From the IMG/VR virus record IMGVR_UViG_3300042539_001740: a DNA stretch of 64,000 bases. One strand, given 5' to 3'. This document shows positions 19,785 to 40,672 of the stretch, piece after piece. The stretch's first letter is position 1. Each line of letters starts with the position of its first letter. The notes beneath the pieces were generated by a model that did not search any database, was not told the DNA's origin, and saw nothing but the letters and a program-made list of their open reading frames with translations. Position numbers and translations under genes: made by a program. The stretch comes from a virus (lineage: Duplodnaviria > Caudoviricetes).

Positions 19785-21182
19785 ATGAACTTCATTGATG
19801 CCTTACAATCAGAGGACACTTACACGGAAAATGGAATGGTAACTAATTCTTCAACTTTGAACGAATGTGTAAACCTATTCTTTACTATTGGTGCTATGAG
19901 AAAACAAGATAAGGAAAGACTTATCTCAACATTCTCAAAAGCTTTCAATGAGAATCCGTTGTCAGCATTGAAAATCCTATTTTGGGTTAGAGATGTAAGA
20001 GGTGGAGCAGGTGAAAGACAAATCTTCCGAGATATCATCAAGTATCTTGTGGAGAATCATCCAAATGTTGTTCAAAAGAACATCCAAGCAATACCATACT
20101 TTGGTAGATGGGATGACCTTTCAGTTCTTTTTGGTACCAAGTTGGAAGCTGAGGCAACCAGAATGTTCGTAAGTGGTCTTATTGTAGAAAATGGACTATG
20201 TGCGAAATGGATACCAAGAAAGGGTGTTATATTCAATGCAATTAGAAAGGCATTAAATACCACTCCTAAAGACCTTCGTAAGTTATTGGTGGGTATTTCC
20301 AATACTGTTGAACAAAAGATGTGCGCAAACCAATGGACTAATATTGAGTATGAAAAGACTCCTTCATTAGCTATGGGTAGATACACAAAAGCTTTTGCAA
20401 AACACGACACAACTGGATTCACTGAGTATTTAGAAAAACTAAAGAAAGGTGAAACCAAAGTGAATGCTGGTGCTATATATCCTTATAACATTGTTCAAAC
20501 AATGAAACAAGGTAGTTGGGAATTGGCAAACGAGCAATGGAAAGCTTTACCAAACTTTATGGAAGGTACAACTGAAAGAATTTTACCTGTAGTTGATGTG
20601 TCAGGTTCAATGAGTTCAATAGTTTCTGGTAGTATTAGTTGTTTGGATGTAGCAGTTTCTTTAGGTTTATATATCTCAGAAAGAAATGAAGGAGTTTTCA
20701 AAGATTCTTTCATTACTTTCTCTGAAAAGCCCCAACTTGAAAAGGTTTCGGGGACACTTAAAGAACGCTACGACCAAATGTTAGTTGCGGATTGGGGTAT
20801 GAGTACTAACTTAGAAAAAGTATTCGAACTTATTCTTAATCAAGCTATCAAACATAGTGTATCACCTGAAGATATGCCTTCTAAGATATTGATTATGTCT
20901 GATATGGAATTTAACCAAGCTTCACGTCACTCTGAAAGTGCGATTCAGATGATAAGAAGAATGTATGATGAAAGTGGCTATTCATTACCACAAATCATAT
21001 TTTGGAATATTCAATCAAGGAATAAAAACTTTCCTGTTAGATGTGATGAATCGGGGACTGCATTAATCTCAGGTCTTTCACCAAGTATTGTAAAGTCAGT
21101 ATTGGGTGGAAAACAGATGACACCAGTATCTATTATGAATGAGACAATCAATTCAGAGAGATACTCAATCATCGAAATCTAA
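19785..21182 (+). CDS. DUF2828-family helical-repeat plus vWA protein (Ro60/TROVE-like architecture)
   Basis: TENG...STLNECVNLFF, RDVRGGAGER, FGRWDDL, AKWIPR; vWA MIDAS VVDVSGSM, ITFS, IMSDMEFN, IFWN. Confidence 0.85.
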   Translation: MNFIDALQSEDTYTENGMVTNSSTLNECVNLFFTIGAMRKQDKERLISTFSKAFNENPLSALKILFWVRDVRGGAGERQIFRDIIKYLVENHPNVVQKNIQAIPYFGRWDDLSVLFGTKLEAEATRMFVSGLIVENGLCAKWIPRKGVIFNAIRKALNTTPKDLRKLLVGISNTVEQKMCANQWTNIEYEKTPSLAMGRYTKAFAKHDTTGFTEYLEKLKKGETKVNAGAIYPYNIVQTMKQGSWELANEQWKALPNFMEGTTERILPVVDVSGSMSSIVSGSISCLDVAVSLGLYISERNEGVFKDSFITFSEKPQLEKVSGTLKERYDQMLVADWGMSTNLEKVFELILNQAIKHSVSPEDMPSKILIMSDMEFNQASRHSESAIQMIRRMYDESGYSLPQIIFWNIQSRNKNFPVRCDESGTALISGLSPSIVKSVLGGKQMTPVSIMNETINSERYSIIEI

Positions 21183-21189
21183 GAGAAAA

Positions 21190-21335
21190 GGAAAAATTGG
21201 TTTATAAAGTATGATTCCAGCAAACTAAGATACAAATATTGAATCATTCGAACACAAGGCTGAGTTGTTGACTCATTTTTCCAATCGCACGGAAATAAAC
21301 TTCAACAAAAAACCCATACTGAAACCAATTTTTCC
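21190..21335 (+). ncRNA. CAGCAA stem RNA 1
   Basis: 14-bp closing stem GGAAAAATTGGTTT/AAACCAATTTTTCC; inner ATGATTC-CAGCAA...GAATCAT. Confidence 0.6.
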
Positions 21336-21386
21336 AATTTTCTTTTCTTTTTGAAACTTTTTAATTATATTTACGTTATATAGAAC

Positions 21387-21450
21387 GAGGGATAGATTCA
21401 GCAATCTTTAAACATCAAAACTTGTAAATTTGACCAAACACTATCCTGTC
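21387..21450 (+). ncRNA. CAGCAA stem RNA 2
   Basis: GGATAG-att-CAGCAA...CTATCC; inner hairpin TCAAA-acttgtaaa-TTTGA. Confidence 0.6.
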
Positions 21451-21453
21451 AAT

Positions 21454-21524
21454 TTAGGTTATAAAGAATGAGTTCAGCAAACTAAACAAAATTGCAACTT
21501 TGGAAAAAAATCATTCTGAGCCAA
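21454..21524 (+). ncRNA. CAGCAA stem RNA 3
   Basis: AGAATGA(g)TT-CAGCAA...AATCATTCT; shares GGTT(T)ATAAAGWATGAKTYCAGCAAACTAA with RNA 1. Confidence 0.6.
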
Positions 21525-21566
21525 ACTTTTTATTAATTTCGCAATACTTATAAACAAACTAAAAAA

Positions 21567-21674
21567 ATGAAAAATTTCTTCAAACATATTAACATATCGG
21601 TTCAGCCACAATTTAGTAATTGTTGGTCAAAACCTAGTGTTTGTAATGGTTGGGGAAATTCTATAGAATTATAA
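21567..21674 (+). CDS. Putative leader peptide MKNFFKHINISVQPQFSNCWSKPSVCNGWGNSIEL
   Basis: A-rich start; followed by a terminator, boxA and the first tRNA; contains GGTTCAG complementary to the terminator 5' arm. Confidence 0.65.
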   Translation: MKNFFKHINISVQPQFSNCWSKPSVCNGWGNSIEL

Positions 21675-21698
21675 TTGTTAATAATTTTTTGATAGTAG

Positions 21699-38708: not shown

Positions 38709-38759
38709 AAAAATCCCCATCTTAAAAAGTGGGGATTTATTTTTTGTAAGAAATTATAA

Positions 38760-38924
38760 CTATTTCTCAACTTTAGCTGAATCAACAGATGGAGTTGTAA
38801 CTGTAGTAGTTTCAACGGCTGTAGAATCTGTAGTTGTAGTTTTTTCTTCAGTAGCTGCAGTAGTTCCACAAGAAGCAAGAACAGTGCTAAGAACAACGAT
38901 TGTTCCAAAAAGTAATTTTCTCAT
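38760..38924 (-). CDS. Small Thr-rich lipoprotein (54 aa, not in the ORF track)
   Basis: MRKLLFGTIVVLSTVLAS-CGTTAATEEK; TATTTAT motif at 38975-38981. Confidence 0.75.
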   Translation of the reverse strand: MRKLLFGTIVVLSTVLASCGTTAATEEKTTTTDSTAVETTTVTTPSVDSAKVEK

Positions 38925-39057
38925 TTTGTCTAAAAAATTTAAGATTTTAATTTGATTTAGTTATTAAACACTTAATAAATACGCATTAAACTTTAATAAG
39001 TCAAATGGTGTTGAAAAATTTTTTGTTAAAATTATAATTATAAAAAAACTAAATAAT

Positions 39058-39414
39058 ATGAATTGGAAACACACCTTGATTATTGTGGTGTCTATTTTGT
39101 TTATTGGAATGGGTTTGGGTTATTTGATAAGTTATAACGCAAAGGAAACTAGAAATCTCCACCAACAACTAATAGATGCTGAAAGAAAAGCTATTGATTC
39201 TTTATATAAAGAATTGGAAGTTATGAAAACTGAAAGGGAAACTATGGAATCCCAACTAAATGCACTTACTACTGGTATTAGAATTAGTGAGTCAAACTTA
39301 TCAACAAAAATAAACCAACTAAAAATTCAAAACAATGTTAAGATTGAAGCTATTACTAATAGTACTAATGATGAGCTGCTCGATGGTTTACGCACAAGAT
39401 TTGGCAAAAAGTAA
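39058..39414 (+). CDS. N-terminal TM plus coiled-coil protein (spanin-like)
   Basis: TM then periplasmic coiled coil; overlaps the next gene. Confidence 0.5.
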   Translation: MNWKHTLIIVVSILFIGMGLGYLISYNAKETRNLHQQLIDAERKAIDSLYKELEVMKTERETMESQLNALTTGIRISESNLSTKINQLKIQNNVKIEAITNSTNDELLDGLRTRFGKK

Positions 39415-39829
39415 CAAAGATTCCGTAAGTCCTAAAATAGATTTAGTTGTTATAGATGGAGATACACTTTTTACAATCAATAGAAAGGTTGCAATACAAA
39501 TAGCAATTGAACATGATTCCTTAGAAATCGTAACAAGTAAATTGAAAGAATGTAATGGTGTATTAGATTATTGTCTTGAGGTTAAAAATCAGTACAAAAC
39601 TGCATTAGACCAATCCCAAGGTGTGAGTGATATGTTGAGAAAAGAAATTGAAAAGAAGGACAAAATTATTGGTAGTTACAAAAAGATTGATGAATCTCAA
39701 CAAGCTATGTACAAAGAACTGAATACTGAATTTAAGAAAGCTAAGAACAGAAACAAGTGGTTAACAGGATTAAGTATTGGTGGGGTTACAGTAGGATTCA
39801 CTTCAATTATCCTTTTACTTCTTAAGTAA
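39335..39829 (+). CDS. Signal peptide, coiled coil and C-terminal TM protein (spanin-partner-like)
   Basis: 80-nt overlap with the previous ORF; C-terminal hydrophobic helix. Confidence 0.45.
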   Translation: MLRLKLLLIVLMMSCSMVYAQDLAKSNKDSVSPKIDLVVIDGDTLFTINRKVAIQIAIEHDSLEIVTSKLKECNGVLDYCLEVKNQYKTALDQSQGVSDMLRKEIEKKDKIIGSYKKIDESQQAMYKELNTEFKKAKNRNKWLTGLSIGGVTVGFTSIILLLLK

Positions 39830-39881
39830 TCATATTATATTTTTTATGTCTTAGGACATAAAGATTAAATAATTTATTATT

Positions 39882-40250
39882 ATGGAAATTACTTATTTTG
39901 CTTTGGGTATGCTTTCGATGGTTGCTTTAACATTTGTTGGAGTTGTTGTTTGGGGTTTGTTCAGGGTCAGTAAAATTGAAAGACAAATTGCTGTCATAAA
40001 ACAAAACGATAGATTCGAGTTTGACAACGTTCAACGACAATTTGAAAATGTTTATCGTGGTATCGATAGTCAAAGGGATGATTACAGACACGAATTTGAA
40101 TCCGTGTTTCGTAGGTTTGAAACAATCGAGGAGAATTCAAGGTTGAATACCGATAACTTGGTGAGAATGATGAATGATAGATATGATGATTCAATTCGTT
40201 ACACAGACAAAAGAATTGATAAGTCATTAAATCAAAAAGAAGTATTATAA
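39882..40250 (+). CDS. TM plus coiled-coil protein
   Basis: N-terminal hydrophobic helix. Confidence 0.6.
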   Translation: MEITYFALGMLSMVALTFVGVVVWGLFRVSKIERQIAVIKQNDRFEFDNVQRQFENVYRGIDSQRDDYRHEFESVFRRFETIEENSRLNTDNLVRMMNDRYDDSIRYTDKRIDKSLNQKEVL

Positions 40251-40291
40251 CAACAAACCCCTCCTAAAAAGAGGGGTTTATTTTTTTCTGC

Positions 40292-40672
40292 GGTGGAGGT
40301 ATAGGGAGTCGAACCCTTTCCTGTCCATCTTAACTATTAAGGACTACATGCTTAGGACAACATTATTCGCAGTGCTCCGAGCTATTTGATTTTAATTACT
40401 ACCAAAACCAACAAAATCAGCCAATTCATTTTTAGGGATGAGAATTAGTTAGACAACCCTTCAGTGCTCCTGTTCCTGAGTTAATGCACCCCGACTCGAA
40501 AGTAATATCCTATTGACTAGGCTACTACCGCTTCTTCAGCACGGATTAAACCTACTGCAGAAAGTTTGTTGATAACGTTGCCGTGTATCGTTTCAAACCA
40601 GTTTAACGGACTTAGTTCAGGTCCGGCATGCCCCGAATAACTAACAACGTCAGTCGATTCCAGATTACCCCC
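40292..40672 (-). ncRNA. ssrA: tmRNA; tag (A)GNVINKLSAVGLIRAEEAVVA*
   Basis: 5' GGGGGTAATCTGGAATCGAC; 3' T-arm GGTTCGACTCCC and acceptor TACCTCC-A-CC; G3:U70; tag ORF 40582-40517. Confidence 0.92.

What the first reader, a model, noticed from the sequence alone, without database searches (positions are those of the whole stretch)
19785..40672. The 20-41 kb region may be one translation-rescue system
Co-located here are the Ro60-like protein with CAGCAA RNAs, two leader attenuators, two boxA sites, 23 tRNAs, tRNA-like RNAs, a cyclic-phosphate receiver and tmRNA. bS21 and the Asn module lie elsewhere in the window. Inference: the phage senses translation damage and restores tRNA supply and ribosome flow against host anticodon-nuclease defences.
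Basis: inference. Interest (0 to 1): 0.7.

Follow-up and report, generated by a model that had tools for sequence, protein, structure and literature searches.

The report
Phage tRNA island with RNA-care genes
This stretch of a lake-water giant phage is its tRNA island, bordered by a Ro60-like protein with its own small partner RNAs, a predicted RNA-end-repair gene and a tmRNA; these parts recur together in many phages, but they look like a loose toolkit rather than one switchable rescue system.

Summary
Every listed component is physically present. They are a Ro60-fold DUF2828/vWA protein, three CAGCAA stem RNAs, 23 tRNAs (up to 26 with relaxed calls), a cREC gene, and a tmRNA on the opposite strand. 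bS21 and an AsnRS-like gene lie elsewhere in the window. "Attenuator" and "boxA" are unproven labels for a conserved micro-ORF plus terminator and a conserved 12-mer that occurs twice.

The distribution is not independent. The DUF2828 gene sits beside tRNA arrays, on the same strand, in at least 8 phage lineages (combined p about 3e-8). The CAGCAA RNAs abut tRNAs by 1-3 nt even where the protein gene is 17-28 kb away.

Among five related jumbo-phage contigs:
- tmRNA and cREC: 5/5
- SmpB, Rnl2-like ligase and a P-loop kinase: 3/5 each
- RtcB: 0/5
- spacing between components ranges from about 1 to 110 kb.

The region holds several terminators and promoters, genes on both strands and about 40 unrelated small ORFs. 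I found no sensor and no ligase in it.

Verdict: this is a recurrent RNA-maintenance neighbourhood around a phage tRNA array, not one co-regulated sensing system. This scan has already reported the DUF2828/handle-RNA pairing many times on other DNA.

The parts
19785..21182 (+). Ro60-like protein (DUF2828 helical domain + DUF7788 vWA/MIDAS domain), 465 aa
   Evidence: Pfam PF11443 and PF25043. phrog_850. AF2 pLDDT 78; the Foldseek top 13 hits are all Ro60/TROVE structures, best 9kop with TM 0.63 and E 6e-9. The MIDAS motif D271-x-S273-x-S275 is invariant in 11 relatives.
21208..21321 (+). CAGCAA stem RNA a, long-loop form (5' stem AGTATGA, CAGCAA at 21218, 3' stem CCATACT then G). An alternative short hairpin spans 21211-21247.
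   Evidence: Sequence. L002 has the compensating stem AGAATGA/TCATTCT. The covariance model scores only the short form, weakly (E 0.39). RNA-library contigs cover 20703-21306.
21389..21448 (+). CAGCAA stem RNA b (GGGATAG ... CTATCCT-G)
   Evidence: Descriptor scan and covariance model at 48.5 bits. Conserved in L001-L005. Covered by a metatranscriptome contig spanning 21391-21552.
21465..21518 (+). CAGCAA stem RNA c (AGAATGA ... TCATTCT-G)
   Evidence: Covariance model at 53 bits. L002 has the compensating stem CGAATGG/CCATTCC. Covered by the same RNA-library contig as RNA b.
21567..21730 (+). 35-codon micro-ORF followed by a strong intrinsic terminator (21697-21726).
   Evidence: The peptide core HI..SVQPQFSNCWS is conserved in L001 and L002 through synonymous changes, and the antiterminator pairing is not maintained in L002. 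Terminator.
21731..21742 (+). Conserved 12-mer GTTCATTGACAT, copy 1, 17 nt before tRNA-Gln ('boxA-like')
   Evidence: Exact repeat. Found at the same place in L001 and L002.
21759..33151 (+). tRNA island: 23 tRNA genes in about 8 clusters, plus tRNA-like genes, interspersed with small ORFs
   Evidence: ARAGORN finds 21 and Rfam 2 more. Relaxed ARAGORN adds Ser(UGA), Ala(UGC) and Gly(UCC). The array is syntenic in L001-L005.
26972..27100 (+). 23-codon ORF plus terminator ('leader attenuator 2'). It is followed by TAACTTTG promoter motifs at 27139 and 27638.
   Evidence: The ORF is identical in L001.
27650..27661 (+). Conserved 12-mer, copy 2, 23 nt before tRNA-Asp and directly after a TAACTTTG -7-type box
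   Evidence: same place in L003.
34165..34587 (+). cREC (cyclic-phosphate processing receiver) domain protein, 140 aa, 1.0 kb after the last tRNA
   Evidence: PF20274 at 85 bits against a cut-off of 27. The acidic motifs YLDD and DHDLGD are conserved with relatives. Homologues are present in 5/5 related contigs.
40291..40672 (-). tmRNA, standard one-piece form; tag GNVINKLSAVGLIRAEEAVVA*; the gene ends ...ACC-G, so CCA is not encoded
   Evidence: Rfam RF00023 at 95.4 bits with full-length alignment. The tag frame is conserved in G001 and G002 with a synonymous change. RNA-library contigs cover 40342-40651.

Best explanation
The region is the tRNA island of a roughly 300-kb freshwater jumbo phage. 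The host is probably a Flavobacteriia-type Bacteroidota member. The island is bordered by RNA-maintenance genes that often travel with phage tRNA arrays.

It is a loose neighbourhood of separately transcribed units, not one regulated system:
1. At its head lies a conserved ribonucleoprotein module. This is a Ro60-fold DUF2828/vWA protein plus three small RNAs that share a 'handle': an AAG start, a 7-bp covarying stem, NTT-CAGCAA, a variable body and a CUG(U) end.
2. 23-26 tRNA genes follow, transcribed from several promoters.
3. A cREC gene lies 1 kb past the last tRNA.
4. About 6 kb of unrelated genes come next (DenV-like glycosylase, peptidases, unknowns).
5. Last comes an inverted tmRNA gene.

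Likely working (inferred). Polycistronic tRNA precursors are cut by host RNase P and RNase Z. In relatives this cutting also frees the handle RNAs that abut tRNAs. The Ro60-like ring binds the handle as Ro60 binds the Y-RNA stem. The particle then sorts misfolded or nuclease-cut tRNA-like RNAs for degradation or repair. cREC opens 2',3'-cyclic phosphate ends for ligases encoded elsewhere; relatives carry Rnl1/Rnl2-type ligases and a kinase. tmRNA, working with host or phage SmpB, frees stalled ribosomes. These would be parallel, constitutive supplies that buffer translation during infection, including against tRNA-cutting defences, with no demonstrated sensing step.

Shown: presence of the parts, the Ro60 fold, stem covariation, recurrent adjacency to tRNAs, and presence of the RNAs in RNA libraries. 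Inferred: binding, substrates and any role in counter-defence.
For: Phage identity: terminase, portal and capsid genes are present. The best isolate hit for cREC is a Flavobacterium phage. Related contigs reach 294 kb at 91% completeness.

Ro60 fold.

Handle RNA:
- 99% of stem cells pair, with compensatory changes (that set was chosen for pairing).
- A covariance model trained only on the window lineage and metagenomic relatives finds untrained hits, 98% paired. They lie on the gene's strand, next to DUF2828 genes or tRNAs, in Alf5, EP1, Campylobacter NCTC12673, Listeria cka11, Bacillus PJN02, Mycobacterium Faith1, Lak-B7 and L014.
- There are no hits in the tRNA regions of two phages that lack DUF2828, T5 and immuto_3-5A.

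DUF2828-tRNA adjacency: 166-3541 nt apart and on the same strand in 8 lineages. Fisher combined p is 3e-8, or 2e-5 if three arrays per genome are allowed.

Handle RNAs abut tRNA 5' ends by 1-3 nt in G003 and G005, although the protein gene is 17-28 kb away.

Repertoire in relatives: tmRNA 5/5, cREC 5/5, SmpB 3/5, Rnl2-like 3/5, Rnl1-like 2/5, kinase 3/5. cREC lies after a tRNA cluster between two phosphoesterases in a Flavobacterium phage.

Multiple transcription units: terminators and a minus-strand gene, and internal TAACTTTG motifs before tRNA clusters.

RNA libraries: riverine metatranscriptome contigs cover the DUF2828 3' end, RNAs a-c and the tmRNA.

Literature:
- cREC is predicted to process cyclic phosphates and is linked to RNA ligases in phages (PMC7824862, PMC9503650).
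- tmRNA and SmpB occur in huge phages (PMC7162821).
- Phage tRNAs counter tRNA-cutting defences (PMC10264068, PMC11555353, PMC11464382).
- Ro60/Y RNA and RtcB form an operon induced by damaged tRNAs (PMC7790460).
Against: - No experiment links any of these parts.
- The window holds no RNA ligase, kinase or SmpB, and the rest of this phage's genome could not be reached. A repair pathway therefore cannot be completed from what is seen.
- The five related contigs belong to one phage family, so their shared repertoire may reflect descent rather than functional coupling.
- The covariance model and my descriptor both select for paired stems, which inflates the pairing percentages.
- The model found no handle RNA in Enterococcus A2 or Aeromonas phiWae14, although both have the protein.
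- RNA-library contigs can contain DNA and give no expression level, strand or ends.
- Faith1, Lak-B7 and eight jumbo relatives have no tRNA within 7-10 kb of the gene.
Confidence: 0.7

Rival explanations
1. The 20-41 kb region is one integrated translation-rescue system that senses translation or tRNA damage. It then switches on tRNA supply, RNA repair and ribosome rescue together, against host anticodon nucleases.
For: - All named parts are present and co-located.
- The same kinds of parts recur near each other in unrelated phages.
- Relatives add SmpB, ligases and a kinase.
- There is a precedent for a damage-sensing Ro60/Y RNA/RtcB operon in Salmonella (PMC7790460).
Against: - There is no candidate sensor or regulator: the only ORF over 250 aa in the region is DUF2828, and no CARF, WYL or sigma-54 activator domain was found.
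- The region has at least 5 strong internal terminators, internal promoters and genes on both strands, and the tmRNA is inverted.
- The attenuator pairing is not conserved.
- Component spacing ranges from 1 to 110 kb in relatives.
- RtcB is absent in 0/5 relatives.
- Unrelated genes (DenV-like, M23, GDSL, ferredoxin-like) are interspersed.
Confidence: 0.12
2. Coincidental co-location. This is simply the accessory, early region of a jumbo phage, where small genes, homing endonucleases and tRNAs pile up. On this view the tRNAs serve codon-usage matching, and the Ro60-like protein, cREC and tmRNA have unrelated roles.
For: - Most ORFs in the region have no known family.
- A homing-endonuclease-like gene is present.
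- bS21 is variably present among relatives: absent from G003 and G004.
- Distances between components vary widely.
Against: - The DUF2828 gene sits beside tRNA arrays far more often than chance allows, in lineages that share no synteny.
- Its partner RNAs are physically fused to tRNA transcription units.
- cREC lies next to tRNAs, ligases or DUF2828 in three different arrangements.
Confidence: 0.1
3. The handle RNAs are processing or insulating elements of the tRNA precursor, such as nuclease entry sites or spacers that set tRNA 5'/3' ends. On this view they are not ligands of the DUF2828 protein, and the protein acts on other RNAs.
For: - The RNAs abut tRNAs by 1-3 nt.
- In G003 and G005 they lie with the tRNAs rather than with the gene.
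- Stable RNAs of unknown function are annotated inside the tRNA array of phage T5.
Against: - In Faith1, Lak-B7, L011 and L012 the RNAs flank the gene where no tRNAs, or only a few, are near.
- They were absent from two tRNA regions of phages that lack DUF2828.
- The invariant single-stranded CAGCAA next to a covarying stem looks like a protein-recognition handle.
Confidence: 0.08

Closest known systems
Ro60 (Rsr) - Y RNA particles of bacteria and phages, including the Salmonella rsr-yrlBA-rtcBA operon (Chen et al. 2014, PMC4201824; Hughes et al. 2020, PMC7790460)
   Same: - A ring-plus-vWA protein fold.
- Small RNA genes next to the protein gene, with a conserved stem and a variable body.
- In relatives, some bodies carry a T-arm-like GGTTCGAnTCC, like the tRNA-like domain of YrlA.
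- A thematic link to tRNAs and RNA repair.
   Different: - The protein is Pfam DUF2828/DUF7788, not TROVE. Sequence similarity to TROVE proteins is only marginal (E 0.03).
- No Rfam Y-RNA or YrlA match.
- The handle motif CAGCAA differs from the Ro-binding helix.
- No RtcB or RtcR.
- The RNAs are embedded in tRNA arrays.
Jumbo-phage RNA-repair and translation repertoires (Iyer et al. 2021, PMC7824862; Al-Shayeb et al. 2020, PMC7162821)
   Same: Large phages carry many tRNAs, tmRNA with or without SmpB, cREC, Rnl1/Rnl2 ligases, kinases and, in a subset, Ro/TROVE-type proteins. The published proposals are ribosome rescue and repair of nuclease-cut RNA.
   Different: Those surveys list repertoires. 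As far as I could read, they do not describe the DUF2828-handle RNA-tRNA array adjacency, and they do not treat the genes as one locus.
T4 Pnkp + Rnl1 repair of PrrC-cut tRNA-Lys (textbook knowledge, cited from memory)
   Same: The phage encodes end-healing and sealing enzymes to undo anticodon-nuclease damage. Relatives G003 and G005 have cREC, an Rnl2-like ligase, a P-loop kinase and an Rnl1-like ligase within 6.4 kb.
   Different: In this window only the predicted cyclic-phosphate-opening step (cREC) is present. No kinase or ligase was found.
Class I RNAs of dictyostelid amoebae (Kjellin et al. 2021, PMC7919456)
   Same: - About 60 nt long.
- A short covarying stem joins the 5' and 3' ends.
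- They start with AAG and end with CUGU.
- A conserved roughly 11-nt single-stranded motif follows the 5' stem strand.
- The phage RNAs begin (a/t)AAG..., carry NTT-CAGCAA after the stem and end ...CUG(U/A).
   Different: These are eukaryotic RNAs with their own promoters. The known binder is Rnp1A, and no link to DUF2828 or tRNA arrays has been reported. The exact 11-nt motif is not printed in the text I could read, so the match of that motif rests on memory and on earlier notes of this scan.
Stable small RNAs inside the tRNA array of phage T5
   Same: RNAs of unknown function, some of them tRNA-like, lie between phage tRNA genes (annotation of NC_005859).
   Different: T5 has no DUF2828 gene and no match to the handle model.

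Membership tests
Ro60/Rsr (TROVE + vWA) proteins | Sequence match to the Pfam TROVE domain | tested here: not met
   Pfam gives DUF2828 + DUF7788 only. A family profile against PDB hits TROVE proteins only at E 0.03, over the MIDAS region. phmmer finds nothing.
Ro60/Rsr (TROVE + vWA) proteins | Helical-repeat ring followed by a vWA domain (Ro60 fold) | tested here: met
   The AF2 model (pLDDT 78, pTM 0.74) matches 13 Ro60/TROVE chains over 490-550 columns. The best are 9kop (TM 0.63) and Thermus phage phiLo Ro60 9l5y. All later hits are vWA domains only.
Ro60/Rsr (TROVE + vWA) proteins | MIDAS motif DxSxS in the vWA domain | tested here: met
   D271, S273 and S275 are invariant in 11 relatives at 44-88% identity.
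Y RNA / YrlA | Match to the Rfam Y-RNA or YrlA covariance models | tested here: not met
   No such hit at E up to 1 in 19000-42000.
Y RNA / YrlA | Small RNA genes adjacent to the Ro-type gene, with a conserved terminal stem and a variable or tRNA-like body | tested here: met
   Three copies lie directly after the gene. The stem covaries. Untrained model hits lie next to the gene in 8 further lineages. T-arm-like inserts occur in relatives but are not evident in the window's own copies.
Y RNA / YrlA | Physical binding of the RNA by the Ro-type protein | not testable with these tools
   Needs RIP/CLIP or gel shift.
rsr-yrlBA-rtcBA damage-induced RNA repair operon | RtcB ligase and an RtcR-type (CARF + sigma-54 activator) sensor in the locus | tested here: not met
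   RtcB is absent from 0/5 related contigs. No RtcB or activator domain was found in the window's large ORFs. No ORF over 250 aa other than DUF2828 lies in 19785-40672.
cREC (cyclic-phosphate processing receiver) family | Pfam PF20274 match above the cut-off, with conserved receiver-type aspartates | tested here: met
   85.2 bits against a cut-off of 27. YLDD and DHDLGD are invariant in 4 homologues. Enzymatic activity has never been assayed (PMC9503650).
Heal-and-seal tRNA repair (kinase/phosphatase + RNA ligase) | An RNA ligase (Rnl1, Rnl2 or RtcB) encoded with the end-healing enzyme | tested here: not met
   tblastn with the relatives' ligases finds nothing in the 64-kb window. The large ORFs give no ligase domain. 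Ligases and a kinase are present in G003, G004 and G005. The rest of this phage's genome could not be reached.
trans-translation (tmRNA-SmpB) | tmRNA with a tRNA-like domain and an in-frame tag ending at a stop codon | tested here: met
   RF00023 at 95 bits, matching model positions 1-374. The 21-codon tag is conserved with a synonymous change in G001 and G002.
trans-translation (tmRNA-SmpB) | Phage-encoded SmpB partner | tested here: not met
   None in the window. Present in G003, G004 and G005, and not found in the two closest (27% complete) contigs. The host's SmpB could serve.
Leader-peptide transcription attenuator | Leader ORF whose translation toggles a conserved antiterminator/terminator alternative | tested here: not met
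   The peptide sequence itself is conserved. The pairing of GGTTCAG with the terminator arm becomes AGTACAG in L002 with no compensating change. Unit 2 is followed by promoters.
boxA / Nus antitermination site | Match to the boxA consensus at the start of a stable-RNA operon, and NusB/NusE binding | tested here: inconclusive
   An exact 12-mer occurs twice, each before a tRNA cluster, and is conserved in relatives. It matches about 8 of 11 positions of the E. coli boxA as I recall it. Binding cannot be tested here.

The most novel reading that the evidence does not exclude
The Ro60-like DUF2828 protein and its handle RNAs form a surveillance particle that is hard-wired into phage tRNA arrays: the RNAs are cut out of the same precursors as the tRNAs. 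Together with cREC, ligases, a kinase and tmRNA/SmpB, it would make up a modular phage toolkit. That toolkit would detect, clear or repair tRNAs cut by host anticodon nucleases and keep ribosomes moving.
Probability: 0.25. Interest if true: 0.8.

Novelty: new variant of a known kind. Interest (0 to 1): 0.45.

Why it matters
Phage tRNAs are now known to neutralise tRNA-cutting defences. Ro60/Y-RNA particles are tied to damaged tRNAs in Salmonella. Here a Ro60-like particle may be built into tRNA arrays across phages of at least four bacterial phyla. If so, phage tRNA islands would be RNA-maintenance units rather than simple codon supplements.

It would also give hundreds of 'DUF2828' genes, including those of Felix O1-type coliphages, a function that can be tested in E. 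coli. For this window in particular, the result tempers the claim: the parts are real and non-randomly associated, but there is no evidence for a single sensing circuit.

Tried and rejected
- Reaching the phage's own genome: none is held. An exact 50-mer from the window's end was not found in viral or metagenome contigs. So SmpB, ligases and Pnkp could only be sought in relatives.
- Megablast of the region against isolated phages matched only tRNA-Arg.
- Single-sequence phmmer against PDB found nothing useful.
- The sigma-70 promoter scan was no better than shuffled sequence: 102 hits against 95±9. The Bacteroidota -7 motif TAnnTTTG is only mildly enriched, 55 against 41±7, so promoters cannot be counted from sequence.
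- MAFFT misaligned the Alf5 copies. I dropped them from model training and used them as a test set instead.
- The handle model found nothing convincing in Enterococcus A2 or Aeromonas phiWae14, and only E 1.3 in Vibrio CZ01, where my descriptor sees long-insert copies. This could be divergence or absence.
- The model hits at window 59072-59128 (E 0.01) and at L002 2941-2999 on the minus strand (E 0.2) are treated as chance.
- Metatranscriptome contigs: parts of the region without cover are not interpreted. Joints that skip about 55 nt inside the odd tRNA-like gene at 31589-31695 have flanks under 30 nt. They probably come from paralogous or foreign tRNAs, so I do not count them as evidence of splicing. 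Three contigs stop at 21301-21306 next to an A-run, which I do not take as an RNA end.
- Burroughs & Aravind 2016 (NAR) could not be opened.
- A full-text search for 'DUF2828' gave 5 unrelated papers.

Full report
WHAT THE WINDOW IS

The window comes from a tailed phage. It holds large terminase, portal and major capsid genes at 51-61 kb and has about 31% G+C. No whole genome is held for it, and an exact 50-mer from its end is absent from the viral and metagenome collections. Fifteen related viral contigs were found through the DUF2828 protein. Five are close (85-94% amino-acid identity) and ten are distant (44-59%). The related contigs reach 294 kb at 91% estimated completeness, so this is a jumbo phage. 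Lake-water metagenomes hold the stretch. The best isolate match of its cREC protein is a Flavobacterium phage. Bacteroidota-type -7 boxes (TAACTTTG) precede tRNA clusters.

CHECK OF THE OBSERVATION

All physical components are present.

- The protein at 19785-21182 is Pfam DUF2828 + DUF7788 and phrog_850 'RNA-binding protein'.
  - An AlphaFold model built on 11 relatives has pLDDT 78.
  - Its best 13 PDB matches are all Ro60/TROVE structures, aligned over the full length: 9kop with TM 0.63, Thermus phage phiLo Ro60, Xenopus and human Ro60, and Deinococcus Rsr. Only vWA domains follow.
  - 'Ro60-like' therefore holds by fold. By sequence the similarity is marginal (E 0.03).
- The 577-nt spacer after the gene holds three RNAs of one design. 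The design is a 7-bp stem whose sequence differs between copies, three bases (usually NTT), an invariant CAGCAA, a variable body, the 3' stem strand, then G.
- ARAGORN finds 21 tRNAs and Rfam two more. Relaxed settings add Ser(UGA), Ala(UGC) and Gly(UCC). The set then covers 19 amino acids and lacks only Asn.
- The 'cyclic-phosphate receiver' is a clear cREC_REC protein at 34165-34587 with conserved acidic motifs.
- The tmRNA is genuine (95 bits, full model) but lies on the minus strand. Its 21-codon tag, ending AVVA, is conserved in close relatives with a synonymous change.
- bS21 (55886-56086, minus strand) and an AsnRS-like catalytic core (4435-5268, minus strand) are confirmed.

Two labels are not verified.

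- 'Leader attenuator 1' is a 35-codon ORF plus a strong terminator.
  - Its peptide is conserved in L001 and L002 through synonymous changes, which points to a small protein.
  - The proposed antiterminator pairing is broken, not compensated, in L002.
- 'Attenuator 2' is followed by promoter motifs before the tRNAs.
- 'boxA' is an exact 12-mer at 21731 and 27650. Each copy lies 17-23 nt before the first tRNA of a cluster and is conserved at the same places in relatives. It is a real element of unknown function; looser matches occur at chance level.

ARE THE COMPONENTS DISTRIBUTED INDEPENDENTLY? NO, IN PART.

The DUF2828 family occurs in 710 of 50,697 isolated-phage records. I inspected one record from each of several lineages. 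The gene lies on the same strand as a tRNA array, at these distances:

| Lineage | Distance and context |
|---|---|
| This window's lineage | 577 nt |
| Felix O1-type Alf5 and Suspvirus EP1 | 166-177 nt; 19-24 tRNAs downstream |
| Campylobacter NCTC12673 | 231 nt; its three tRNAs |
| Bacillus PJN02 | 171 nt; 13 tRNAs |
| Listeria cka11 | 629 nt; 17 tRNAs |
| Enterococcus A2 | 1.2 kb; 15 tRNAs plus a tmRNA |
| Vibrio CZ01 and Aeromonas phiWae14 | 2-4 kb; 12-15 tRNAs |
| Metagenomic L014 | 385 nt; 13 tRNAs plus a tmRNA |
| Metagenomic L012 | 1.5 kb |

No tRNA lies within 7-10 kb of the gene in Mycobacterium Faith1, Lak-B7 or eight jumbo relatives. I treated those as p = 1. The combined probability of such proximity is then about 3e-8, or 2e-5 if three arrays per genome are allowed.

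THE HANDLE RNAs

I built a covariance model from 16 copies in the window and metagenomic relatives. It finds untrained copies, always on the gene's strand, next to the gene or among the adjacent tRNAs. They occur in Alf5, EP1, Campylobacter, Listeria, Bacillus, Mycobacterium Faith1, Lak-B7 and L014.

In these untrained hits 98% of stem cells pair, and six of seven pairs change on both sides. The model itself favours pairing, so the placement of the hits is the independent evidence.

In the jumbo relatives G003 and G005 the protein gene is 17-28 kb from the tRNAs. There the RNAs sit inside the tRNA array and end 1-3 nt before a tRNA. RNase P would therefore make their 3' ends. Two tRNA regions from phages that lack DUF2828, T5 and Flavobacterium phage immuto_3-5A, have no match. 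Long-bodied copies in relatives carry T-arm-like GGTTCGAnTCC.

Riverine metatranscriptome contigs cover the 3' end of the gene with RNA a, RNAs b and c, and the tmRNA. These are contigs and may include DNA.

The RNAs start with AAG and end with CUG(U), as reported for the Class I RNAs of dictyostelids (PMC7919456).

This scan has already reported the DUF2828/handle-RNA pairing many times on other DNA. I found no paper on it: a full-text search for 'DUF2828' gave 5 unrelated papers, and Chen et al. 2014 searched only TROVE-annotated genomes.

THE REST OF THE PROPOSED SYSTEM

Counts in five related contigs:

| Component | Contigs with it |
|---|---|
| tmRNA | 5/5 |
| cREC | 5/5 |
| RtcB | 0/5 |
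| SmpB | 3/5 |
| Rnl2-like ligase | 3/5 |
| Rnl1-like ligase | 2/5 |
| P-loop kinase | 3/5 |
| bS21 | 3/5 (absent from the 91%-complete G004) |

The arrangements differ between contigs.

- G003 (G005 carries the same genes in the same order):
  - SmpB at 0.7 kb
  - cREC at 3.5 kb
  - Rnl2-like ligase at 6.0 kb
  - kinase at 7.4 kb
  - Rnl1-like ligase at 9.3 kb
  - tmRNA at 22 kb
  - tRNAs with handle RNAs at 22.7-33.5 kb (handle RNAs at about 32.4 and 33.5 kb)
  - DUF2828 at 50 kb
- G004:
  - SmpB at 45.5 kb
  - tmRNA at 50.6 kb
  - 35 tRNAs at 63-71 kb
  - ligase at 72 kb
  - DUF2828 at 161 kb, with three handle RNAs and cREC within 3.2 kb of it
- The Flavobacterium phage: cREC follows a four-tRNA cluster between two phosphoesterases.

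The theme recurs: tRNA arrays attract RNA-care genes. The unit does not recur. All five contigs belong to one phage family, so their shared content is partly inheritance.

The window itself has no SmpB, ligase or kinase homologue.

IS IT ONE CO-REGULATED SYSTEM? THE ANATOMY ARGUES AGAINST IT.

- Strong + strand terminators lie at 21697, 27071, 36016, 37375 and 38711.
- A minus-strand small gene with its own terminator lies at 21881-22060. It sits in a 380-bp segment that some strains lack.
- Promoter motifs recur inside the island.
- The tmRNA is inverted relative to all of its neighbours.
- About 40 small ORFs are interspersed. Those with any family hit are unrelated to translation: a homing-endonuclease-like gene, a ferredoxin-like gene, a GDSL hydrolase, a PD-(D/E)XK-like gene, a DenV-like glycosylase, a metalloprotease-like gene and an M23 peptidase.
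- Nothing resembles a sensor. In the Salmonella precedent the sensor is RtcR, which binds tRNA halves with cyclic-phosphate ends (PMC7790460). Here the only ORF above 250 aa in the region is DUF2828. cREC is predicted to be an enzyme, not a receptor (PMC7824862, PMC9503650).

MOST LIKELY MECHANISM

I read the region as a tRNA island with RNA-maintenance genes at its edges. Host RNA polymerase transcribes several tRNA precursors, and the conserved 12-mer marks the start of two of them. RNase P and RNase Z release the tRNAs, and in relatives also the abutting handle RNAs.

By analogy with Ro60 on the Y-RNA stem, the Ro60-like ring binds the handle. The particle then deals with misfolded or cut tRNA-like RNAs. 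cREC opens cyclic-phosphate ends for ligases encoded elsewhere. tmRNA releases stalled ribosomes, using host or phage SmpB.

This agrees with published ideas that phage tRNAs and repair enzymes counter tRNA-cutting defences (PMC10264068, PMC11555353, PMC11464382) and that huge phages carry ribosome-rescue genes (PMC7162821). Presence, fold, covariation and adjacency are shown. Binding, substrates and any counter-defence role are inferred.

VERDICT

The island concept is known. The DUF2828/handle-RNA/tRNA-array link appears to be unpublished, but this scan has found it repeatedly. What this report adds:
- the RNAs travel with the tRNAs even when the protein gene does not;
- cREC, the ligases, the kinase, SmpB and the tmRNA join the neighbourhood in mix-and-match fashion.

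Noticed in passing
window 21837-22216: Contigs from two RNA-library runs join 21836 directly to 22217. Some strains therefore lack this 380-bp segment, which carries a minus-strand small membrane-protein-like ORF and its terminator, sitting between tRNA-Gln and the Phe/His cluster.
   Followed up: partly
window 21567-21674: A 35-codon ORF whose N-terminal 21 residues (core HI..SVQPQFSNCWS) are conserved in L001 and L002 through synonymous changes. It is probably a real micro-protein between the handle RNAs and the first tRNA.
   Followed up: partly
window 40291-40672 (-); L016-L020: The tmRNA tags in this phage family are long (21-26 codons) and end unusually: AVVA, LMAA and LELV instead of ALAA-type ends. 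The window's sub-lineage has the gene inverted relative to its neighbours.
   Followed up: partly
G003 contig 0.7-9.9 kb (L024, L029, L032, L035); the same in G005: A compact cluster of SmpB, cREC, an Rnl2-like ligase, a P-loop kinase and an Rnl1-like ligase in related jumbo phages. It looks like a phage heal-and-seal set with a ribosome-rescue factor next to it.
   Followed up: partly
window 22541-22634, 28649-28724, 30356-30427, 31589-31696: tRNA or tRNA-like genes missed by default ARAGORN: Ser(UGA), Ala(UGC), Gly(UCC) and a 107-nt tRNA-like gene with an oversized anticodon arm. The last shares its ends with the second tRNA-Tyr at 30839-30920.
   Followed up: partly
L051 (phage T5, NC_005859 28-42 kb): The T5 tRNA array is annotated with eight 'stable RNAs with unknown functions', some of them tRNA-like. 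None matches the handle model, and T5 has no DUF2828 gene.
   Followed up: partly
window 46589-47389: A weak nucleotidyltransferase (NTP_transf_2) match, E 9e-4 and below the cut-off. This could matter because the tmRNA gene does not encode its CCA end.
   Followed up: no
handle RNAs in the window, L012 and L037: The RNAs begin (a/t)AAG and end CUG(U/A), with a short end-joining stem. These are the same terminal features reported for dictyostelid Class I RNAs (PMC7919456).
   Followed up: partly
window 59072-59128: A single handle-model hit (25.6 bits, E 0.01) lies inside the ORF at 57796-59346, far from the DUF2828 gene. It is probably chance.
   Followed up: no
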